Shown piece after piece: positions 1,773 to 58,508 of a DNA stretch of 58,508 bases. The notes beneath the pieces were generated by a model. It searched no databases, was not told the DNA's origin, and saw nothing but the letters and a program-made list of their open reading frames with translations. Each line of letters starts with the position of its first letter. Positions within the stretch are counted from its first letter, which is position 1. A program made the position numbers and the translations under genes. The stretch lies in sequence record PQ850612.1; one strand, 5' to 3'. The DNA is from Escherichia phage KarinMuster_Bas82.

Positions 1773-1803
1773 GGCGGGATTATTCCCGCCCGTTTTCTTT
1801 TTA
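1773..1803 (+). terminator. rho-independent terminator after terL
   Basis: GGCGGGA-tta-TCCCGCC hairpin followed by T-rich run. Confidence 0.6.
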
Positions 1804-6890: not shown

Positions 6891-6898
6891 ATGAAAAA

Positions 6899-6925
6899 GG
6901 GACCAGAAACGGTCCCTTAATTTTT
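6899..6925. terminator. bidirectional terminator between convergent genes
   Basis: GGGACC-agaaac-GGTCCC hairpin with T-rich flank. Confidence 0.6.
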
Positions 6926-12972: not shown

Positions 12973-13356
12973 TTATTTAATGATTAATGTTGGTTGTAAG
13001 TCTTCTTCATACCAAGTCCAACCAATGCATGTACCATCTTCAGCATCAACATATGGTTTCAACCAGTCGATAAATTGTTCAATTTCGCTATCATAGTTTT
13101 TAATATCACTACGACTAAAAACATATTGAGTATCGGTGAAATCAAATTTAGGACAACTATTTATTACTTCCGGGTGATGATAAAAACTGCTACAACTACC
13201 AATAAAATTCCATCTGGGAAGACTGAAAAACTTATGTTGTGGTAGTTTCTCTGGTTCTTTTTCACCACAGAACATGTGTGCAATAATAGCTTTCACATCC
13301 ACAGGTGCATCTACTTTAATCTGACACTTCAACACTAATTCGGTATACATTCCCAT
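12973..13356 (-). CDS. hypothetical protein
   Basis: start re-assigned to MGMYTELV with SD GAGGGTG. Confidence 0.5.
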   Translation of the reverse strand: MGMYTELVLKCQIKVDAPVDVKAIIAHMFCGEKEPEKLPQHKFFSLPRWNFIGSCSSFYHHPEVINSCPKFDFTDTQYVFSRSDIKNYDSEIEQFIDWLKPYVDAEDGTCIGWTWYEEDLQPTLIIK

Positions 13357-13402
13357 TTTCACACCCTCGTTCATAAGCAACCCATCGCTGCTTCCCGTGA
13401 TA

Positions 13403-13446
13403 AAGATACCCTACCGTCTGTAATCCGTCAAGAATTATTTTAAAGA
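13403..13446 (-). promoter_or_regulatory. conserved phage promoter (leftward)
   Basis: TTTAAAATAATTCTTGACGGATTAC; -10 TATCTT. Confidence 0.6.
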
Positions 13447-13557
13447 TACAGCTAATACAGAACGTGTACTAACTGTACATGGTTTTACATAGGTTTCATG
13501 ATTTTGAGTTGCGGCTAATACTGAATCTGTATTAGTAGATCATAGATTCATAGATCG

Positions 13558-13660
13558 CGTCATGTTTATTTTTAACCGACCATTCTCTATCTTATTCTTT
13601 TTATTATCTTTTTATAGATAACATAGAAAACATAGATAAACAGAAGAGTAGTATAAGTAG
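13558..13660. repeat. AT-rich ~100-bp repeat, copy A
   Basis: about 90% identical to 53274-53375; shared core CTCTATCTTATTCTTTTTATTATCTTTTTATAGATAACATAGAAAACATAGATA. Confidence 0.8.
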
Positions 13661-13730
13661 TAAAAGTTGCTGCAAGTAGGAGAGGTTTAAAAGGTATAGG
13701 GAGTCGCATACTTCCCATGAATCTATACAT

Positions 13731-13769
13731 AAAATAATTCTTGACGGATTACACCGACACAACTACCCT
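13731..13769 (+). promoter_or_regulatory. conserved phage promoter (rightward)
   Basis: AAAATAATTCTTGACGGATTAC; -10 TACCCT. Confidence 0.55.
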
Positions 13770-13799
13770 GTGGTTAAGAAAACAAGAAGGGTTGAATGT

Positions 13800-14147
13800 A
13801 TGGATCCGAACATCAGAGTTGCTACAGACGAATTCATTCGTCGCGCCCGTAAAATTCATGGTGATCGTTACGACTACTCATTCAGCATTGTTGAAGATAG
13901 TTCCAGCACCGTGGTTATTATTGACCGTGAAACTAACACAGTGTTTTTCCAGGTTGTCGCTGAACATCTGGACGGTGTTGAACCAGTAACGACTGCTGTT
14001 GAACCAGTAACGACTGCTGTTGAACCGATCAATAATCTTTCTGAGACATTCTGTAACGTTGTAAACAGCGTGTATCACCAGTGCAATTATTCATCTGAAA
14101 TGTTAGAATTTAGTCATGTTGAAACAATACGAGGACAATCCCCGTGA
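13800..14147 (+). CDS. hypothetical protein with T5orf172-repeat-like motif
   Basis: start moved to ATG at 13800 (SD AAGGG); EFIRRARKIHGDRYDYS resembles repeats of the 22440-23354 protein. Confidence 0.45.
   Translation: MDPNIRVATDEFIRRARKIHGDRYDYSFSIVEDSSSTVVIIDRETNTVFFQVVAEHLDGVEPVTTAVEPVTTAVEPINNLSETFCNVVNSVYHQCNYSSEMLEFSHVETIRGQSP
13978..14031 (+). repeat. 21-bp in-frame tandem duplication
   Basis: GTTGAACCAGTAACGACTGCT x2 plus partial third copy. Confidence 0.7.
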
Positions 14148-14554
14148 TTAACGTAAAAGTTAATAAGGTTGACAACTCACTACGTATGGTATTCGGTTGG
14201 GGTAGTATCTGTAAAAAACGTAATCAGGAGACAGGCCAGTTAGAAATTTACACAGACACGGACAACGAGCAATTTCCCGAGGATGTCACTCTGAAAGCAT
14301 GGCTGGACTTTATGAATTCTGACCAGCGCATCATGGACAATATGCACAATGAACAACCTGTTGGGAAAGTTGTGTTTGCGTTCCCGATGACTGAAGACAT
14401 TGCGGCAAGTTTTGGGCTGGTTGATAAACTGGATCAGACAGGCGTCATTGTTGGTACGTTGATAACTGATGACGAAGTTTTGAAAAAGTTTCAGACTGGT
14501 GAATATACGGGATATAGTATCGGTGGAACTGCATATTATGAGGATGTGGAATAA
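14144..14554 (+). CDS. hypothetical head-module protein
   Basis: 136-aa ORF, overlapping stop/start. Confidence 0.5.
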   Translation: MINVKVNKVDNSLRMVFGWGSICKKRNQETGQLEIYTDTDNEQFPEDVTLKAWLDFMNSDQRIMDNMHNEQPVGKVVFAFPMTEDIAASFGLVDKLDQTGVIVGTLITDDEVLKKFQTGEYTGYSIGGTAYYEDVE

Positions 14555-15813
14555 TGCGTACAGATGGTACTAATCATTTACGCCGCGCTAAATCGATGAA
14601 GATCGGTTTTCTGTCCGGCGTGACAAAACCTGCTCACGAGGGAGCAAATGCTCTTGTTCTTAAATCACATTCAGAACCGCCTGCTGTTGTTCTTTTAAAG
14701 TCAACATTTAGTGCAGCACTGGCTGAAAAAGAACTTGAACAGAAAGTTCGTGATTTCCTCTCTAATTCGTGGATGTTGAACGATGCGCTTTATGAAGCAG
14801 CAGAGGATATTGCAAAAGATGATTCTATTACCGATAAACAAGCAGCATTGCGTGACGCGGTAAATGAATATATTATAACGTTGCAACAGGCCGCTGGTAT
14901 TTCGATGAATAAAGCGAAAGGTGGTAAAACTGAAGGCGGTGAAGTTTTCCCGGCATCTGATTATGCATATGTACCAGATCCAGAAAAACCTTCAACCTGG
15001 AAACTTCGTTTAACAGCTACCCCTGGCGGTGAACCTGATGCGCGTATTGTAGGCGCTGCACTTGCTGCATTAGGTCCGGGTTATCGCGGTAACAAAGTTG
15101 AAATCCCTGAAGCCGATTTAGCAGGTGTGAAAAACAAAGTCCGATCCGCGTGGAAAAAATTACACCCGGACCAGGAAGTACCTCAAGTTTTAAAAACGGC
15201 AGAGGAAATCGAAATGTCCGAACTGGAAAAATACAAAGCCCTGGCTGAGATGAACGACGTCCATAAGGCGTATCATAATTCTCTGCCTGAATCTGATCAG
15301 GAAGCATTCCGTAAAATGGATGCGACTGCTCGCGATGCCCTCGTGACGATGGCTAAACAGGCTGATGAATCGTTTACCACGATTGCGGGTCAGGTTGTTC
15401 AGAAGTCTGTAGCTGGTCCAATGTATGACGTTCTGAAATCTCAGGACGAACAACTTCGCAAAGCACAGACTGAAGCGGCACTGGCGAAAGCTGAAAAAAT
15501 CGTGAACACTGATTTCGCACACATTCCGGGTGAAATGGTACAGAAAACCCAGATGGTTATGACTCTTGAGCGTTTACCGGAAGCGGATCGTAATTTCCTG
15601 GTTGAAAAACTCAAACAGGCCGACGAACTCTGGAAAGCACGTAAAGAGCCAGCCGCGCCGAATGGTAGTGGTAAAGGTTCCAGTGCACTGGAAGACATGA
15701 TCAACGAATGGCTGAAAGCAAATCCGGGTAAAACACGCACCCAGGCTATGCAGGCCATTTCTGCAACTAAAAAAGGTCAGGAAGCAATCGAAGCGATGCG
15801 AGGTGACGAATAA
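14554..15813 (+). CDS. putative scaffolding protein
   Basis: 419 aa, charged and predicted helical, upstream of capsid gene. Confidence 0.45.
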   Translation: MRTDGTNHLRRAKSMKIGFLSGVTKPAHEGANALVLKSHSEPPAVVLLKSTFSAALAEKELEQKVRDFLSNSWMLNDALYEAAEDIAKDDSITDKQAALRDAVNEYIITLQQAAGISMNKAKGGKTEGGEVFPASDYAYVPDPEKPSTWKLRLTATPGGEPDARIVGAALAALGPGYRGNKVEIPEADLAGVKNKVRSAWKKLHPDQEVPQVLKTAEEIEMSELEKYKALAEMNDVHKAYHNSLPESDQEAFRKMDATARDALVTMAKQADESFTTIAGQVVQKSVAGPMYDVLKSQDEQLRKAQTEAALAKAEKIVNTDFAHIPGEMVQKTQMVMTLERLPEADRNFLVEKLKQADELWKARKEPAAPNGSGKGSSALEDMINEWLKANPGKTRTQAMQAISATKKGQEAIEAMRGDE

Positions 15814-17265: not shown

Positions 17266-17293
17266 AAGGGGTGGCTTATGCTGCCCCTTTTTT
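17266..17293 (+). terminator. weak terminator after capsid gene
   Basis: GGGG...CCCC hairpin then TTTTTT. Confidence 0.4.
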
Positions 17294-21296: not shown

Positions 21297-21320
21297 GCCC
21301 GGTTAACGCCGGGCTTTTTT
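21297..21320 (+). terminator. rho-independent terminator
   Basis: GCCCGG-ttaacg-CCGGGC then TTTTTT. Confidence 0.7.
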
Positions 21321-22147: not shown

Positions 22148-22443
22148 TTGACTTCCTCTTGTGGAACGAGCGGACAGACGGGGATGACCTGGACTGGGTT
22201 GCACAAGGGGCGGCTGCACGTGGTATATCTGTTCCGGTTGTTGTACGGAAACGTCCTGAATTGCGACCTGATGCTATCTTTTACTGGAATGCTTTTTTGG
22301 ATTTGATAGGTGCTGATTGGGTTGCTTGTGAGCGTTATGCACGGGTGTATAACGTTGATGTACAATTCCTATGGAAATTATTGGTAGCATTGCGGTCTGC
22401 ACGTGTTGTCGAGATGAAGAAAAATAAACATAAGCCCGGTTAG
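21725..22443 (+). CDS. tail assembly chaperone frameshift-extended form
   Basis: fusion ...EWEKQIEKN-LIDFLLWNERTDGDD... by -1 shift. Confidence 0.55.
22138..22144 (+). other. -1 programmed frameshift site A_AAA_AAC
   Basis: heptamer ends 1 nt before stop; -1 frame open for 94 further codons to 22443 and lacks its own ATG/SD. Confidence 0.6.
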
Positions 22444-22457
22444 TTCCGGGCTTTTTC
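22433..22457. terminator. hairpin terminator between convergent genes
   Basis: AGCCCGG-ttagtt-CCGGGCT then TTTTT. Confidence 0.55.
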
Positions 22458-23354
22458 ATTTATGTAGTCGAGGATTGCAGGAGAGTATTTAAACCACTCT
22501 GTAGCACCGTCAAAGCCTTTGAGACGCGCATTAAGTTCACGGAAGACCTTGTGTACCTCTTGTTCCAGTTTGTAAGCATCAGCGCCGTGTGGAAACGGGT
22601 ATGACACGAGTTTAACCACTGGGTGTGTTGTTTCGCGTTGTAGTTGTCGTAGTCGCCGTTTTAAGTCGTTTGTGATACCGACTTTAAGCAGAGTAGGGCA
22701 CTTTTTATCGTCAGCTAACACGTAGAGTGTACCGGGTTCTGACGGGTTAAAACCTGTTTGTGAACACTGAGGACAACCATGTTTTTTATGCAAATGCATG
22801 GCTGGACGTTGTTCAAACACTCCATGCTCTGGACAGATGATTTTTATTCGAGTGAAATTGTTAATATACGCCACCAACGAATAGTCGTAACGGTCCCCAT
22901 GAACTTCGCGAGCACGAGTAATGAAATCTTCGGCGCCTAAGCGTTTTTGTTCAGACGACTGTTTACGAGCACATTGTGGGCAACCTTTCCCGTGAACATG
23001 ATTGCCCGGTGTCTGTTCAAACACACCATGTATCGGACAGATAATCTTCACAGGTGTGCACCAATTCACATACTCCACCAGCGAATAGTCATACTTGTCC
23101 CCATGAACTTCACGAGCACGAGTGATAAACTCTCCTGTGGTTAAACGTTTTTGTTCAACAGTACATTGGGTACAACCTGCTTTCATTGAAGTGTGATTGT
23201 TCGGAGTCTGTTCAAATACCCCGTGTTCGGGGCAGATAATTTTTACTTTGGTGTTAGCACCTTCATACTCCACCAGCGAATAGTCATACTTGTCACCATG
23301 AACTTCACGGGCACGCGTGATAAACTCTTCTGTGGTTAAACGTTTCCTACTCAT
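22440..23354 (-). CDS. T5orf172/GIY-YIG-like domain protein with three N-terminal repeats
   Basis: 304 aa; three ~60-aa repeats (EFITRAREVHGDKYDYSLVEY...CPxHGVFEQ...C.QC); C-terminal GTLYVLADDKK...LLKVGITNDLKRRLRQL. Confidence 0.6.
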   Translation of the reverse strand: MSRKRLTTEEFITRAREVHGDKYDYSLVEYEGANTKVKIICPEHGVFEQTPNNHTSMKAGCTQCTVEQKRLTTGEFITRAREVHGDKYDYSLVEYVNWCTPVKIICPIHGVFEQTPGNHVHGKGCPQCARKQSSEQKRLGAEDFITRAREVHGDRYDYSLVAYINNFTRIKIICPEHGVFEQRPAMHLHKKHGCPQCSQTGFNPSEPGTLYVLADDKKCPTLLKVGITNDLKRRLRQLQRETTHPVVKLVSYPFPHGADAYKLEQEVHKVFRELNARLKGFDGATEWFKYSPAILDYINEKARN

Positions 23355-37950: not shown

Positions 37951-38997
37951 TCAGTAACCGTTACCGTTGAGAAAATTCGGGGCCGGAGTAGTCATTACCA
38001 TATAACCGTTAGCGATCAGTTGTTCATCGTTCCAACCTTGCGAGATAAACTGTTCATAAGTAGCACCACCTGCTTTTTCAGTCATTACCTTCACAGGTGC
38101 TGCCGCTGGTGTAGGCGCTGCTACAGGTGCTGCCGCTGGTGTAGGCGCTGCTACAGGTGCTGCCGCTGGTGTAGGCGCTGCTACAGGTGCTGCCGCTGGT
38201 GTAGGCGCTGCTACAGGTGCTGCCGCTGGTGTAGGCGCTGCTACAGGTGCTGCCGCTGGTGTAGGCGCTGCTACAGGTGCTGCCGCTGGTGTAGGCGCTG
38301 CTACAGGTGCTGCCGCTGGTGTAGGCGCTGCTACAGGTGCTGCCGCTGGTGTAGGCGCTGCTACAGGTGCTGCCGCTGGTGTTACGCCGATCGGACGTGC
38401 ACCTTCAGGCATTGCAGGAGCCGCACCGAACACAGAGGCAGGAGCCGGACCGGAAATGATTTCTTCACCTGCATAAAGCAATTGTGCCATTTCCATGTTG
38501 ATATATACGCCAGCCTGATTACCTGTACGACCGTTTGCAACAGATGATCCGCTGATACGGTAGTAATAACCTTTTTTCGCCAGATTTTTATCAATAACTG
38601 GCTGGTACGCTGCGTTATAAACCGGACACGCGTCAATAGCCACGTTGCGTGAGAAACCAATTACCCAGTGACCAGCATAACCAGTTTTACTCGCATGTTT
38701 CGGATCATCACCGTTAATAATTTTCCATGCGAAAGTAGGTTGTTGTGGTTCGCCGTTCACATAGTGTGAGTTCGCCGCTCGCATAATCGCCTGGAATACC
38801 GCACCCAGTTCACCTTGTTCTTCCCACCAGTTCGCCGCTGTTTTAGGAAACGCCAGACCAACCCACCAGTTGTGTTTTTCAGGTGCTAACGGTTTATTTT
38901 CGTGGTCATGAGTGTTGATATCGAAAAAAGAACCGCCAACCAGACGACCAACCGGAGTTACAAAAGATTCTTTCTGTGCCATGTTATTAACCTTCAT
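37951..38997 (-). CDS. DUF2815-like protein with (PAAAPVAAPT)n linker
   Basis: 348 aa; alternative start MAQKESF at 38982; nine perfect decapeptide repeats; C-terminal TYEQFISQGWNDEQL. Confidence 0.55.
   Translation of the reverse strand: MKVNNMAQKESFVTPVGRLVGGSFFDINTHDHENKPLAPEKHNWWVGLAFPKTAANWWEEQGELGAVFQAIMRAANSHYVNGEPQQPTFAWKIINGDDPKHASKTGYAGHWVIGFSRNVAIDACPVYNAAYQPVIDKNLAKKGYYYRISGSSVANGRTGNQAGVYINMEMAQLLYAGEEIISGPAPASVFGAAPAMPEGARPIGVTPAAAPVAAPTPAAAPVAAPTPAAAPVAAPTPAAAPVAAPTPAAAPVAAPTPAAAPVAAPTPAAAPVAAPTPAAAPVAAPTPAAAPVAAPTPAAAPVKVMTEKAGGATYEQFISQGWNDEQLIANGYMVMTTPAPNFLNGNGY
38089..38382 (-). repeat. 30-bp perfect tandem repeat, 9 full copies plus partial ends
   Basis: identical 30-mers TGCCGCTGGTGTAGGCGCTGCTACAGGTGC, in-frame. 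Confidence 0.9.
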
Positions 38998-52251: not shown

Positions 52252-52278
52252 GCGGGGTAATCATCCCCGCTATCTTTA
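52252..52278. terminator. bidirectional terminator
   Basis: GCGGGG-taatcat-CCCCGC with T-rich flanks. Confidence 0.6.
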
Positions 52279-53031
52279 TTGACCCATCATATCTTTATAC
52301 ATCATCAAAACAACATCATCCGGCATATTGTCTACATCACAATGTGGGTTGTGTGATAACGCATACAGTCTGATTTTCTCCTTCAAATCGCTGACATCGA
52401 CTACAGGTGCTTCCACTCGTGCTACAGGTGCTTCCACTCGTGCTACAGGTGGTTCCACTCGTGCTACAGGTGGTTCACAAACCATCACGTTAAACGGTGT
52501 ACCGGTGCCTTCGTATTTTTCAAGCAAATCGACCATTACGTTTACACATTCCGGGATCCATCCCCGGCGCAAACCATTCTGAATCCAACTGTCAGTAATT
52601 GTGTGTTCGTTTAAATTCCTGCGTAGCACATATCTTGCACATTCAAAATTACCGCACATCGCCTCAAACCGTGTCCACACGTCGTGACCGTGAACAGCTT
52701 CCAGGATCTGTGAATCAACGTATCTGACACGTTGCCAGTAGTTATTAGCAAAACGCCTGTGCGGTAATTTCTGACGGAGTTCGGTAACCGGTATTGTGTG
52801 TTTAAGAACAATGTTTTCGTCAGAATATTGTACTGGCAAGGGTGACAGTGTGAAGTCAGTAATCTCTTCAAGAATAATACTGATCGTTTCATATTTAGGA
52901 TGAAACCTACCGCTTAACCATTGGTTGTAACGACCAACAGTTACCTTAACACCTCGACGATTAAGGTATTCAACAGCATTTTGTACCCCGCCTTTTAAAT
53001 CTATCAATTCGTCTAAAAGGTTCTTTTTCAT
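52276..53031 (-). CDS. hypothetical protein with (E)PPVARV repeats
   Basis: start at MKKNLLDEL with SD AAGGGTG; four 21-bp in-frame repeats. Confidence 0.5.
   Translation of the reverse strand: MKKNLLDELIDLKGGVQNAVEYLNRRGVKVTVGRYNQWLSGRFHPKYETISIILEEITDFTLSPLPVQYSDENIVLKHTIPVTELRQKLPHRRFANNYWQRVRYVDSQILEAVHGHDVWTRFEAMCGNFECARYVLRRNLNEHTITDSWIQNGLRRGWIPECVNVMVDLLEKYEGTGTPFNVMVCEPPVARVEPPVARVEAPVARVEAPVVDVSDLKEKIRLYALSHNPHCDVDNMPDDVVLMMYKDMMGQ
52401..52500 (-). repeat. 21-bp tandem repeat x4 plus partial
   Basis: CTACAGGTGCTTCCACTCGTG x2 then CTACAGGTGGTTCCACTCGTG x2. Confidence 0.8.
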
Positions 53032-53069: not shown

Positions 53070-53260
53070 CGCGCGTTAGCAGCTAGTGCAAGACGTGCTT
53101 TATATGTTAGTGTATTTACACCTAACGCACGTTGTGCTTTAGCAGCTAGTGCAAGATGCACGTTGTGTATTAGCTGTTAGTGCACGTTGTGTATCTATGT
53201 TGGTACAGCTAATGCACGTTGTGAATTATGTAGTGCATATAGTGCATTAAAGTTATACTT
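53070..53260. repeat. iteron-like array
   Basis: GCACGTTGTG x4 at 24-32 bp spacing, TTAGCAGCTAGTGCAAGA x2, TATTAGCTGT recurring. Confidence 0.75.
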
Positions 53261-53273
53261 AACATAGATTTCG

Positions 53274-53375
53274 TCATGTTTATTTTTTAACCAACCTCTC
53301 TCTATCTTATTCTTTTTATTATCTTTTTATAGATAACATAGAAAACATAGATACAAAGAAGAAGTAGTATAGAAA
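53274..53375. repeat. AT-rich ~100-bp repeat, copy B
   Basis: near-identical to 13558-13660. Confidence 0.8.
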
Positions 53376-53642
53376 GATAGAGATAGTGCATATAGTGTAT
53401 TAGCTGTAAATAGAGCTAAAATAAAAGTCTGGGAGATACCTATTGTAATCTATGTTTTTATGCAAGTCTTTGAATTGATTGTGATTATGGGCTACGTATT
53501 TATGTATGTAGTCGAAAATTAGTGCATGTTGTGCACTAACTGTAAAATTAATACTAACATTGTATTAGCTGTAAAACAGGGCGTGTGGACAACCCGTGGG
53601 TATCTGTGGGAAACTAATTTAAAATTTATGGGAGACAAATTT

Positions 53643-54278
53643 ATGAAAATTTCAGACCGGGCTAAAAGAGCTGCTCTGGAGTTGTCGCCGGAACAGCTTA
53701 AGTTCGCCAACCTGTGGTTAGATCGTGTCAATAATGGCTTCAGCAATACGCGATGCGTTTTAGAAGCTTATCCGGGTCACACGTCTGATGCAGCGGCTGC
53801 AACGACCGCACACCGCCTCCTGTCGAATACGAAGGTGTTGAACTATCTGGACGCGATGGGAAGTCATGCGCTTGAGTCTGTCGGGGAATCGTTAACGAGT
53901 CGTGTTGAGTGGTGGAAACGAGCGGCAAGCACGGCTGAAGAATTACTGGAACCGTATTGTCAGCGTGTCATCGTCCCTGGTGAAGACGATACAGAAGCGA
54001 AACACCTGTGGGTGAACAGTACCGACGATATCCCCAGTCATCTGCAACAGTACGTAGTTTGCTACAAACGTTACATGCTGGGTGGATACATTCTGGTGAC
54101 ACGTGAACTGTTCGACCCGAAAACTCGTGCAAAAGCGTCTGAACAACTGGATAAGATCACCGGGAACAGTATCGACCGTGTGGAATTGTCTGGCGTGGTT
54201 GGAAACGTGGTTCAGAGTGTTCCTGAAGGTGCAACCATCGACGACATCGCGCAACTTTATCAGAAGGCACTCAAATAG
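53643..54278 (+). CDS. terS: terminase small subunit
   Basis: start at MKISDRAK (SD GGAGA); LSPEQLKFANLWLDRVNNGFSNTRCVLEAY...AHRLLSNTKVLNYLDAM matches terminase small-subunit N-domain pattern. Confidence 0.65.
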   Translation: MKISDRAKRAALELSPEQLKFANLWLDRVNNGFSNTRCVLEAYPGHTSDAAAATTAHRLLSNTKVLNYLDAMGSHALESVGESLTSRVEWWKRAASTAEELLEPYCQRVIVPGEDDTEAKHLWVNSTDDIPSHLQQYVVCYKRYMLGGYILVTRELFDPKTRAKASEQLDKITGNSIDRVELSGVVGNVVQSVPEGATIDDIAQLYQKALK

Positions 54279-56911: not shown

Positions 56912-57334
56912 TTAACAGGGGTTTCGACTGGCATAAAACTTTGTACCGACTGGCATACGTTCCATGTTGAGTTTTCCGCGCAGGTGTTTGTATGTTTCAC
57001 CGGGAGAACGTAGTTCTGCTTCACACGGTCTTTCAACAATTTCACCCACGGGATCACCTAACGCGCCTTTCCATCCTTCCCACATTGCGCACATGGTGAT
57101 AAACCAGACACTACCTAAACTGGCTTTCTTGTTCTCCCAGAACCAGTCGATGAACTCTATCGACATTCCATGTTGTTTTGCAATTTCGTAACGGTCATCC
57201 ACTTTTTTAACCCTCCACCCATATTTAGCACGATTCATAGCGGTCCGTTCATCATTCGTGGTGAACAGTACGCGCCCGGATTTATGACAAATGTTCCACA
57301 TTATAACTACCGCCTGAATAGTGATGTTTACCAC
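56912..57334 (-). CDS. hypothetical protein
   Basis: 140-aa ORF; start uncertain. Confidence 0.4.
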   Translation of the reverse strand: MVNITIQAVVIMWNICHKSGRVLFTTNDERTAMNRAKYGWRVKKVDDRYEIAKQHGMSIEFIDWFWENKKASLGSVWFITMCAMWEGWKGALGDPVGEIVERPCEAELRSPGETYKHLRGKLNMERMPVGTKFYASRNPC

Positions 57335-58447: not shown

Positions 58448-58508
58448 TCTGTTACCACACGTCACCCGTGGTAAACTGTACAGAACAGTTACAAACGGGT
58501 CGATAACC

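What the first reader, a model, noticed from the sequence alone, without database searches (positions are those of the whole stretch)
13440..13740. Second copy of a ~100-bp AT-rich repeat 40 kb from the terS-proximal copy
Positions about 13558-13660 are roughly 90% identical to 53274-53375, including a 54-nt core CTCTATCTTATTCTTTTTATTATCTTTTTATAGATAACATAGAAAACATAGATA with CATAGAT-type sub-repeats. Both copies sit in ORF-free AT-rich regions directly upstream of rightward operons (head genes here, terS there). Conservation of a long non-coding element at two loci suggests a shared cis function: a late-promoter/activator site, nucleoid-protein bending site, or small RNA.
Basis: seen in the sequence. 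Interest (0 to 1): 0.65.

Follow-up and report, generated by a model that had tools for sequence, protein, structure and literature searches.

The report
Twin AT-rich elements heading late operons
A roughly 107-bp AT-rich sequence occurs twice in this 9NA-like phage genome, once in front of the DNA-packaging genes and once in front of the head genes; the pair is conserved as far as Vibrio phages and most likely forms the shared control region of the two late operons, although a pair of replication origins is not excluded.

Summary
A 54-nt stretch is identical at 13585-13638 and 53300-53353. The full repeat, 13549-13655 against 53263-53371, matches at 99 of 109 positions, where chance predicts no match. 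It is not an assembly artefact: the flanks differ, and both copies are present at the same two loci in 8 fully checked enterobacterial relatives, in a Klebsiella phage, and in diverged form in a syntenic Vibrio phage.

The repeat is the core of a larger module, made up of:
- lineage-specific 31-bp palindromic boxes found only at these two loci;
- CATAGAT heptamers, with 7 of the genome's 8 copies at these loci;
- the two least stable 100-bp duplex stretches of the genome, with a G-free left arm and a C-poor right arm;
- a weaker shared downstream block with a -10-like CTATGAT.

The N-terminal helix-turn-helix-like domain of the gene next to copy B changes together with the box type in three lineages.

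My best reading (about 0.4) is a shared late-operon promoter and upstream control region, regulated by that protein. The main rival (about 0.28) is a pair of origin-like sites, as with oriL and oriR of SPP1. I found no support for an RNA gene, a pac site or an artefact. Function cannot be settled without 5'-end mapping and origin mapping.

The parts
13549..13655 (+). Copy A of the AT-rich core repeat
   Evidence: Local alignment to copy B gives 99 of 109 identical. It is the second least stable 100-bp duplex window of the genome, z = 4.1. It is conserved in 8 relatives.
53263..53371 (+). Copy B of the AT-rich core repeat, 272 bp upstream of the terS start
   Evidence: It is the least stable 100-bp duplex window of the genome, z = 4.3.
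13585..13638 (+). The 54-nt stretch identical in both copies (A). It consists of a T-rich, G-free arm followed by three 9-bp units: ATAGATAAC at 13614, ATAGAAAAC at 13623 and ATAGATA at 13632.
   Evidence: The third unit never varies across relatives, while the first two do.
53300..53353 (+). The 54-nt stretch identical in both copies (B), with 9-bp units at 53329, 53338 and 53347.
   Evidence: The G-free run 53279-53331 (53 nt) is the longest in the genome.
13447..13540 (.). Two palindromic boxes upstream of copy A (13447-13477 and 13510-13540). The half-site is CAGCTAATRC with a 7-nt spacer.
   Evidence: Half-site scan: 23 of 28 and 17 of 28 matches. Inverted-repeat matches to the B-locus boxes are I19 and I20.
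53078..53255 (.). Array of about six palindromic boxes to the left of copy B (53078, 53117, 53148, 53204, 53225 and others), overlapping the likely promoter of the minus-strand gene.
   Evidence: D7, D11, D17. Boxes scoring 20 of 28 or better occur only at loci A and B.
53378..53573 (.). Three palindromic boxes to the right of copy B (53378-53408, 53514-53544, 53543-53573), between the core and terS.
13686..13730 (+). Downstream shared block at A: TTTAAAAGGTATAGGGAG ... AATCTATACAT (an inverted CATAGAT-like, -10-like element).
   Evidence: The same block is present in 9NA, Sasha and Klebsiella phage loci as TAAAAG-N21/22-CTATGAT.
53418..53457 (+). Downstream shared block at B: AAAATAAAAGTCTGGGAG ... 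AATCTATGTTT.
52276..53031 (-). Gene for the candidate box-binding protein (homolog of 9NA gp84 and Sasha gp81; 251 aa). It has a variable N-terminal helix-turn-helix-like domain and a conserved C-terminal part.
   Evidence: The N-terminal type (W, 9 or X) matches the box type on the left of copy B in three lineages. Residues 1-60 are predicted as four helices at pLDDT 80-94. The family is tiny and unannotated.
13403..13444 (-). Early-type sigma-70 promoter facing left from locus A (TTGACG-17-TATCTT with an AATTATTTTAAA upstream tract).
   Evidence: D2, D4, D6, I17.
13730..13769 (+). Early-type promoter facing right, serving the inserted DUF723 gene. It is the other arm of the perfect 24-bp inverted repeat around copy A.
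   Evidence: I17, D9. It is absent from 9NA, Sasha and VLCpiS10a.
53643..54278 (+). terS, the first gene downstream of copy B.
   Evidence: PHROG terminase small subunit. The start codon is aligned to the 9NA and Sasha annotations.
14144..14554 (+). XkdF-type head protease gene, the first conserved gene of the head operon downstream of copy A.

Best explanation
The two copies are the conserved core of one duplicated cis-regulatory module. One module heads the packaging block that starts with terS, and the other heads the head and tail block that starts with the head protease gene. In this reading each module provides the rightward late promoter and its upstream region. That region is an easily melted, AT-rich, strand-asymmetric tract carrying TATAGATA/CATAGAT repeats, followed 50-90 bp downstream by a conserved block with a -10-like CTATGAT and no usable -35. 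That pattern is what an activator-dependent or otherwise modified late promoter looks like. The surrounding 31-bp palindromes are operators for the helix-turn-helix protein encoded next to copy B, which would set the timing at both loci and regulate its own gene. Shown here: the anatomy, the conservation, the restriction of boxes and heptamers to these two loci, and the co-variation of protein and boxes. Inferred: that transcription starts here, which protein binds, and the direction of the regulation.
For: 1. Position and orientation. Both copies point toward, and lie directly upstream of, terS and the head operon in the window group, 9NA, Sasha, VLCpiS10a and Vibrio phage 1.022.O.
2. A promoter is needed there. 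In the enterobacterial genomes the upstream neighbours are on the other strand. The roughly 17 early-type TTGAC promoters include no rightward copy at locus B in the window, nor at locus A of 9NA, Sasha and VLCpiS10a. The only rightward-oriented conserved sequence available is the core plus the downstream block.
3. The downstream block TAAAAG-N21/22-CTATGAT is shared by A and B loci across lineages.
4. Boxes scoring 20 of 28 or better occur only at A and B. The box type is the same at A and B within the window group, within 9NA and within VLCpiS10a, but differs between those groups.
5. The neighbouring protein's N-terminal domain changes with the box type on the left of copy B in three lineages, and it is predicted as a small four-helix domain.
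6. Vibrio phage 1.004.O shares the replication module but has a different virion module. It lacks the two-copy repeat.
Against: 1. No canonical sigma-70 promoter of 10 of 12 or better is conserved facing right in any ortholog.
2. Only two copies exist, but at least seven separate plus-strand late segments do. Strong intrinsic terminators follow terL, portal, the major capsid, tail tube and tail chaperone genes. Two promoters alone would therefore need read-through or antitermination.
3. Several features are classic for origins: the two least stable duplex windows, iteron-like repeats, nine boxes flanking copy B on both sides, and base-exclusion tracts on one strand.
4. Only structural and replication proteins are detectably shared with the Vibrio phage that keeps the element. 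No transcription factor is shared.
5. Sasha and BDX09P1 carry mismatched box types at some sites, so box binding at every site cannot be essential.
6. No transcript data exist for this phage group in the literature I could read.
Confidence: 0.4

Rival explanations
1. The two copies are a pair of replication-origin-type sites. The AT-rich core is the DNA-unwinding element, and the boxes and heptamers are initiator binding sites. The initiator would be either the neighbouring helix-turn-helix protein or the P4-family primase-helicase. Both sites could fire, or one could serve as an auxiliary or fork-arrest site, as proposed for oriL and oriR of SPP1 or ori and crr of P4.
For: - The copies are the two least stable 100-bp windows in the window genome (z = 4.1 and 4.3) and in Vibrio phage 1.022.O (z = 5.5 and 5.6).
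- Seven of the genome's eight CATAGAT heptamers lie in the two loci, together with arrays of palindromic boxes on both sides of copy B.
- One strand excludes a base over long runs: 72- and 76-nt C-free runs in the Vibrio phage against 29 nt for the next longest, and a G-free arm followed by a C-poor arm in the window.
- The phage encodes its own replisome, including a primase-polymerase with D5_N and SF3 helicase domains that records annotate as P4 family.
- A variable N-terminal DNA-binding domain joined to a conserved C-terminal part is also the layout of lambda O (my own knowledge).
- SPP1 has two origin sequences of repeats plus an AT-rich unwinding element. One of them lies in the late region, in the segment that interrupts the virion-assembly gene order (PMC6316719). 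By gene numbering this is between gene 7 and the scaffold gene (my own knowledge), which corresponds to the position of copy A.
- Apart from virion proteins, the proteins detectably shared with the Vibrio phage are replication and DNA-metabolism proteins; no transcription factor is among them.
Against: - An origin has no need to sit in a fixed orientation directly in front of the two late operons.
- There are no canonical DnaA boxes and no IHF sites.
- Orientation-corrected GC-skew tests show no replichore signal.
- Relatives with related replication genes but a different genome layout (Vibrio phage 1.004.O, Pseudomonas phage RSP) have a single AT-rich palindromic region in the early region and no two-copy element.
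- Copy A tolerates loss of two of its three heptamers and an 11-bp insertion in close relatives.
Confidence: 0.28
2. The element is a loading site for a factor that makes late transcription resistant to termination. It would act at the head of each late transcript, as qut, nut or put sites do in lambdoid phages. This is a more specific version of the late-transcription reading.
For: Only two copies exist, yet strong intrinsic terminators punctuate the plus-strand late genes, so read-through is needed. HK022 likewise has two similar put sites (my own knowledge).
Against: No conserved RNA structure exists on either strand. No Q, N or other antiterminator homolog is annotated in relatives. The element lies mostly upstream of the -10-like block rather than downstream of it.
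Confidence: 0.08
3. The element is a packaging (pac) recognition region bound by TerS, with copy A as a second or vestigial pac site.
For: Copy B lies directly upstream of terS. Boxes flank an AT-rich centre, which recalls the pacL, pacC and pacR arrangement of SPP1 (my own knowledge). 9NA packages by a pac-directed headful mechanism (PMC4153490).
Against: [quoted passage not shown] Box types change with the neighbouring helix-turn-helix gene rather than with terS, as seen in BDX09P1. Copy A is 18.8 kb away from terS.
Confidence: 0.06
4. The element encodes a small RNA or a structured leader.
For: The minus-strand fold of each copy is somewhat better than shuffles (z = -2.9 and -3.2).
Against: That signal comes from imperfect dyad symmetry in the DNA. 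RNAalifold finds no consensus structure on either strand across 17 copies. There is no Rfam match at gathering threshold, and no promoter-terminator pair brackets the element.
Confidence: 0.03
5. The repeat is an assembly artefact or a recent neutral duplication with no function.
For: None beyond the high identity of the two copies in this one genome.
Against: The flanks are unrelated and the copies differ at 10 positions. Both loci carry the element in independently sequenced genomes, including Sanger-sequenced 9NA, and in Klebsiella and Vibrio phages.
Confidence: 0.01

Closest known systems
Bacillus phage SPP1 oriL and oriR
   Same: Two distant sequences in a pac-type siphophage, each made of protein-binding repeats plus an AT-rich unwinding element and both bound by one phage protein. 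One of them lies in the late region, in the segment that interrupts the virion-assembly gene order together with moron genes (PMC6316719). By gene numbering this is between gene 7 and the scaffold gene (my own knowledge), which matches the position of copy A.
   Different: SPP1 oriL lies inside the initiator gene, not upstream of terS. SPP1 uses a DnaB-type helicase with a loader and the host polymerases, whereas this phage has a P4-family primase-helicase and its own PolA. There is no sequence similarity, and no replication data exist for the 9NA group.
Repeated late promoters with activator sites (P2 Ogr-dependent, Mu C-dependent, P1 Lpa-dependent late promoters)
   Same: One conserved non-coding sequence is repeated in front of each late operon. 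It has a poor or absent -35 and depends on a phage factor (my own knowledge).
   Different: Those elements are short (about 20-60 bp) and sit in front of every late operon. Here the conserved unit is over 100 bp, is extremely AT-rich, occurs only twice, and no activator homolog is recognisable.
Transcription-coupled phage origins (T7 primary origin; T4 oriF and ori34)
   Same: A promoter lies next to an AT-rich, easily unwound tract with strand asymmetry (my own knowledge).
   Different: No promoter feeding into the tract has been identified here, and the phage has no RNA polymerase of its own.
Satellite phage P4 ori and crr with the alpha primase-helicase
   Same: Two separated cis sites carry the same short repeats, in a replicon whose key enzyme is a P4-family primase-helicase (family annotation; P4 biology from my own knowledge).
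   Different: P4 alpha binds its repeats through a C-terminal winged-helix domain. The 784-aa protein here has only about 35 residues left after the helicase domain. The repeats are unrelated in sequence.
Regulator-operator cassettes of the XRE/Cro type, and the lambda O N-terminal domain with its ori iterons
   Same: A variable N-terminal DNA-binding domain changes together with adjacent palindromic sites, while the rest of the protein stays conserved.
   Different: The family has no detectable relatives outside this phage group (13 proteins among 1.8 billion representatives). The helix-turn-helix assignment rests on a predicted fold with only weak structural matches.

Membership tests
Sigma-70 promoter | -35 and -10 hexamers 16-18 bp apart with a good match, conserved across orthologs and facing the downstream operon | tested here: not met
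   The best rightward candidates score 8-9 of 12 and do not sit at the same place in different orthologs. The early promoters of the same genome score 9-11 of 12 with a conserved context.
Sigma-70 promoter | A mapped transcription start | not testable with these tools
   No transcript data are available for this phage group.
Activator-dependent late promoter region | The same conserved sequence upstream of the late operons, in a fixed orientation, with a -10-like element and no -35 | tested here: met
   The core plus the downstream block TAAAAG-N21/22-CTATGAT is present at both loci in several lineages.
Activator-dependent late promoter region | An identifiable activator or sigma-like factor | tested here: not met
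   None is annotated in PDP46, 9NA or Sasha. None is shared with the Vibrio phage. The 10 proteins I scanned gave no such family. Most small proteins of the genome were not scanned.
Iteron plus unwinding-element replication origin (lambda, SPP1, P4 types) | An AT-rich region of lowest duplex stability | tested here: met
   The two copies are the top two 100-bp windows in the window genome and in Vibrio phage 1.022.O.
Iteron plus unwinding-element replication origin (lambda, SPP1, P4 types) | Clustered repeats for an initiator next to the unwinding element | tested here: inconclusive
   Boxes and CATAGAT heptamers are clustered and specific to these loci, but the proteins that bind them are unknown.
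Iteron plus unwinding-element replication origin (lambda, SPP1, P4 types) | Replication starts there | tested here: inconclusive
   GC-skew models corrected for gene orientation give no signal above shuffles. Direct mapping is not possible with these tools.
SPP1-type or P1-type pac site | One site per genome at or near terS, where packaging cleavage starts | tested here: not met
   There are two copies, one of them 18.8 kb from terS. Digests of 9NA virion DNA show one pac fragment (PMC4153490). Cleavage positions could not be checked because the paper that maps them is not held.
Known RNA family or small RNA | An Rfam match, or a conserved secondary structure with compensatory changes | tested here: not met
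   No Rfam match at gathering threshold in the whole window. RNAalifold gives an empty structure on both strands for 17 copies.
Terminal redundancy or assembly artefact | Identical copies with continuing identical flanks, absent from independent assemblies | tested here: not met
   There are 10 differences in 109 columns and the flanks are unrelated. Both loci carry the element in 10 independent genomes.
XRE/Cro-type helix-turn-helix regulator with operators (applied to the protein at 52276-53031) | A helix-turn-helix fold | tested here: inconclusive
   Residues 1-60 are predicted as four helices at pLDDT 80-94. Foldseek matches to XRE domains are only local (53-63 columns, rmsd about 3 A) with E-values above 1. 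There is no Pfam match.
XRE/Cro-type helix-turn-helix regulator with operators (applied to the protein at 52276-53031) | Palindromic sites next to the gene that change together with the DNA-binding domain | tested here: met
   Three N-terminal types pair with three box types (window group, 9NA, BDX09P1). Simple genetic linkage of adjacent DNA is an alternative explanation.

The most novel reading that the evidence does not exclude
The element serves both functions at once. It would be a late-operon start site whose base-excluding, easily melted tract is also where the phage's P4-family primase-helicase or an R-loop opens the DNA. Late transcription, replication and perhaps packaging would then be physically coupled at two fixed points of the genome, with a lineage-specific helix-turn-helix protein acting as the switch. 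This would be a conserved dual origin-promoter module in a phage supergroup spanning hosts from Vibrio to Escherichia.
Probability: 0.12. Interest if true: 0.75.

Novelty: new variant of a known kind. Interest (0 to 1): 0.5.

Why it matters
The molecular life cycle of the 9NA-like phages (Nonanavirus, Sashavirus and relatives in Klebsiella, Proteus and Vibrio) is described as unstudied (PMC4153490). Neither their late promoters nor their origin is identified in the literature I could read.

This analysis picks out two loci and one small protein as the most likely control points of the late programme or of replication. It also shows the arrangement is ancient, which makes it worth testing.

The window has the size and taxonomy of the E. 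coli K-12 BASEL phage Bas82 (an inference from PMC11990801). If that is right, the experiments are practical.

The element is also where mosaic exchange between relatives breaks, so it bears on how these genomes recombine.

Tried and rejected
- **Rfam on the whole window:** no match.
- **RNA folding:** single-sequence folds give a modest minus-strand signal, but RNAalifold finds no consensus structure on 17 copies. I dropped the RNA reading.
- **Host-factor sites:** no IHF consensus and no canonical DnaA box in either locus. The 1-mismatch DnaA-like boxes downstream are no more frequent than elsewhere, with 30 in the genome.
- **GC skew:** after correcting for gene orientation, a half-genome replichore term and a free two-switch model explain no more than shuffled data. 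The test is uninformative.
- **Sigma-70 scans of all orthologs:** no conserved rightward promoter.
- **Structure of the neighbouring protein:** the single-sequence model was poor. With 8 sequences only the N-terminal 60 residues are confident, and the PDB Foldseek search has no significant match.
- **Homolog searches for that protein:** 11 and 13 relatives, none annotated.
- **Resemblance to T7 or SP6 promoters (TATAGGGAG, TAGAAGAG):** noted but set aside, because no single-subunit RNA polymerase gene was noted among the annotated genes or ORFs examined.
- **Similarity of GGTTGGTTA in copy B to the NrS-1 primase site TTTGGTTA (PMC8718748):** a 7-of-8 match that chance gives at roughly 0.1 per locus. 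I keep it as a lead only.
- **Module-swap comparisons:** Vibrio phage 1.004.O has the same replication module with another virion module, and Pseudomonas phage RSP has a related virion module in one contiguous operon. Both lack the two-copy element, but both are too diverged to be decisive.
- **IMG/VR pattern scan:** returned five loci, which I did not analyse further.
- **Zeng et al. 2019, J Virol (PMC6819911):** this is the main paper on the group and it is not held. I could not check whether it already describes the element or where it places pac.

Full report
**What the window is.** The window is a complete genome of a 9NA-like siphophage, opened at the terL start codon. It is 93-96% identical over the finding's locus A (window 13000-14200) to Escherichia phages vB_EcoS_AVIO78A and PDP46 and to Sashavirus 536P12, and it is syntenic with Salmonella phages Sasha and 9NA. 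Its size and taxonomy fit the BASEL phage Bas82, which is an inference from PMC11990801.

**The observation.** The best local alignment runs 13549-13655 against 53263-53371 with 99 of 109 identical positions. A degenerate 29-nt pattern across the three 9-bp sub-repeats matches only these two places with up to 3 mismatches, and matched nowhere in 100 shuffles. The flanks are unrelated, so this is not a collapsed terminal redundancy.

**Surroundings.**
- Copy A lies in a 443-bp gap between a leftward cluster of small genes ending at 13356 and a rightward gene at 13800.
- A perfect 24-bp inverted repeat brackets copy A (13419-13442 and 13730-13753). It turned out to be two members of a family of about 17 early-type sigma-70 promoters (TAAAATAATTC-TTGACG-GATTACA) that drive the small-gene and replication clusters.
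- The rightward promoter of that pair serves a DUF723 gene that is absent from 9NA, Sasha, SP069 and Klebsiella phage VLCpiS10a. In those phages the head protease gene follows the element directly.
- Copy B lies between a leftward 251-codon gene (52276-53031) and terS (53643). No early-type promoter is present there.

**The repeat is the core of a larger module.**
1. Thirty-one-bp palindromes (half-site CAGCTAATRC, 7-nt spacer) scoring 20 of 28 or better occur only at locus A (one strong, one weak) and locus B (about six on the left and three on the right).
2. CATAGAT occurs 8 times in the 58.5-kb genome, and 7 of those are in the two loci. TATAGATA occurs only at 13613 and 53328.
3. The two cores are the two least stable 100-bp duplex windows of the genome, z = 4.1 and 4.3.
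4. The left arm is G-free (53 nt at B, 38 nt at A). The right arm is the most C-poor stretch of the genome, with 4 C in 80 nt.
5. A weaker second block is shared 50-90 bp downstream, at 13686-13730 and 53418-57. It contains AAAAG..GGGAG and an inverted CATAGAT-like heptamer that reads as a -10-like CTATG/A.

**Conservation.**
- Both loci carry the core in AVIO78A, PDP46, 536P12, BDX09P1, PJ16, Sasha and 9NA. Only locus A could be checked in SP069.
- The third 9-bp unit, ATAGATA, never varies. The first two do (ATAATAAAC, ATAGATAGT, ATAATTAGT). Copy A is more plastic than copy B, and PJ16 has an 11-bp insertion in copy A.
- Klebsiella phage VLCpiS10a has the same two-locus layout with its own box type.
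- Vibrio phage 1.022.O is syntenic and its primase is 40% identical. Its only non-coding repeat between distant loci is 14880-15015 against 57024-57154 (78% over 138 bp). The two copies lie upstream of the head protease gene and of the putative terS. They are again the two least stable windows (z = 5.5 and 5.6), with C-free runs of 72 and 76 nt against 29 nt for the next longest.
- The arrangement is therefore ancient and under selection.

**The boxes and the neighbouring protein.** Box sequences are specific to each lineage:
- type W in the window group;
- type 9 in 9NA (GTGTTATCTGAAAC);
- type K in VLCpiS10a (TCTGGTAAGCTGAAAC);
- type X on the left of copy B in BDX09P1 (TAATCCTGTCATAG).

Within the window group, within 9NA and within VLCpiS10a, the A and B loci carry the same type. 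This argues that one specific protein acts at both loci.

The protein encoded next to copy B has a conserved C-terminal part and a variable N-terminal region of about 65 residues. That region exists in three versions, which pair with box types W, 9 and X. Residues 1-60 are predicted as a four-helix domain at pLDDT 80-94. Structural matches to XRE helix-turn-helix domains are only local and not significant.

The family has 11-13 members in the large protein collections and carries no annotation. Sasha (locus A has K-like boxes) and BDX09P1 (the right side of B and locus A remain type W) are mosaics whose breakpoints fall at the core. Binding at every site therefore cannot be essential, and the core acts as a recombination junction.

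**What the element is not.**
- It is not an RNA family: there is no Rfam match and no consensus structure.
- It does not carry the classical host-factor sites: no IHF or DnaA consensus.
- It is not a canonical sigma-70 promoter.
- It is not an artefact.
- A pac site is unlikely. There are two copies, 9NA virion DNA shows a single pac fragment (PMC4153490), and box type follows the helix-turn-helix gene rather than terS.

**Weighing the two serious readings.**

The late-operon control reading rests on these points:
- The position and orientation are fixed in front of terS and the head operon in every lineage.
- In the enterobacterial phages a rightward promoter must lie in these gaps, and the core plus the downstream block is the only conserved rightward sequence there.
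- The downstream block has a -10-like element without a -35.
- The layout of boxes plus a neighbouring variable DNA-binding protein looks like an operator-regulator cassette.
- Vibrio phage 1.004.O has the same replication module with a different virion module and no two-copy repeat.

The origin reading rests on these points:
- The duplex stability is extremely low.
- The repeats resemble iterons, and boxes lie on both sides of copy B.
- One strand excludes a base over long runs.
- The phage has a P4-family primase-helicase and its own polymerase.
- Apart from virion proteins, the proteins detectably shared with the Vibrio phage are replication and DNA-metabolism proteins; no transcription factor is among them.
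- SPP1 offers a close precedent with oriL and oriR, one of which lies in the late-gene region, at a position I take to correspond to copy A (PMC6316719).

GC-skew tests were uninformative. Strong terminators after terL, portal, the major capsid, tail tube and chaperone genes mean that two late promoters alone would need read-through.

I put the late-operon control module at about 0.4 and the origin pair at about 0.28. A combined origin-promoter function is the most novel reading my evidence does not exclude, at about 0.12.

**Novelty and limits.** I found no description of the element in the literature I could read. The key paper on the group (Zeng et al. 2019) is not held, so prior description cannot be ruled out. 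In kind it resembles known things, namely repeated late-promoter regions and two-site origins. I therefore rate it a new variant of a known kind, of moderate interest, with clear experiments that would settle it.

Noticed in passing
window 5441, 7664, 9448, 13420, 21636, 23583, 40963, 41026, 42748, 54795, 56648, 58421 (facing left); 1802, 13735, 35989, 46333, 48104 (facing right): About 17 copies of an extended early-type promoter, TAAAATAATTC-TTGACG-GATTACA. The -35 hexamer sits inside a near-palindrome (TAATTC / GRATTA), which suggests an operator for an early shut-off factor superimposed on the promoter.
   Followed up: partly
window 58464-58496; also 23625, 53592, 53048 (minus strand), 13766: The motif ACCCGTGGTWAAC lies 15-40 nt upstream of the start codons of terL, the tape-measure block, terS, the helix-turn-helix gene and, in 9NA, Sasha and the Klebsiella phage, the head protease gene. 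Before terL it forms the base of a long hairpin. The Vibrio phage has ACCCGTTACGCGGTAAAC at the equivalent place. It could be a late 5'-leader or promoter element.
   Followed up: partly
window 53460-53522: A 20-codon hydrophobic ORF (MQVFELIVIMGYVFMYVVEN) lies in the terS leader. It stays in frame in six relatives, but PDP46 has G-to-D and V-to-A changes, and no Shine-Dalgarno sequence is evident. Whether it is coding is unclear.
   Followed up: partly
window 38063-38382: About ten perfect 30-bp tandem repeats lie inside the gp2.5-like single-strand-binding protein gene on the minus strand. The tblastn match to the PDP46 protein covers only its first 199 residues and does not extend across this repeat region.
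   Followed up: no
window 52401-52476: In-frame 21-bp repeats encode a (PPVARVE)n linker in the helix-turn-helix protein. The copy number varies among relatives, and the linker is absent from the 9NA-type proteins.
   Followed up: partly
window 22789-23352: Three internal repeats of about 165-200 nt (64-73% identical) lie in the minus-strand gene 22461-23345. A gene at the corresponding position next to locus A in Vibrio phage 1.022.O (T5orf172 domain) also has internal repeats.
   Followed up: no
window 13800-14147: A DUF723-like gene with its own early-type promoter is inserted between copy A and the head protease gene. It is absent from 9NA, Sasha, SP069 and VLCpiS10a, and it looks like a mobile or homing-type insertion.
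   Followed up: partly
L020 (BDX09P1) 560-720; L016 (Sasha) 420-560: Mosaic breakpoints fall at the edges of the core. BDX09P1 has swapped the left boxes of locus B together with the N-terminal domain of the neighbouring gene. Sasha carries a 9NA/SP069-like locus A alongside a window-like locus B. The conserved core seems to act as a recombination junction.
   Followed up: yes
window 1773-1790, 6897-6918, 17266-17289, 21297-21314, 22432-22453: Strong intrinsic terminators, several of them bidirectional, lie after the terL, portal, major capsid, tail tube and tail chaperone genes. They divide the late genes into short units.
   Followed up: no
L030 (Vibrio phage 1.004.O) 38991-39277; L031+L032 (Pseudomonas phage RSP) record positions 53099-53617: More distant relatives have a single AT-rich, least-stable region with large inverted repeats in the early region, in place of the two-copy element. 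These regions are plausible origins or divergent early-promoter regions.
   Followed up: partly
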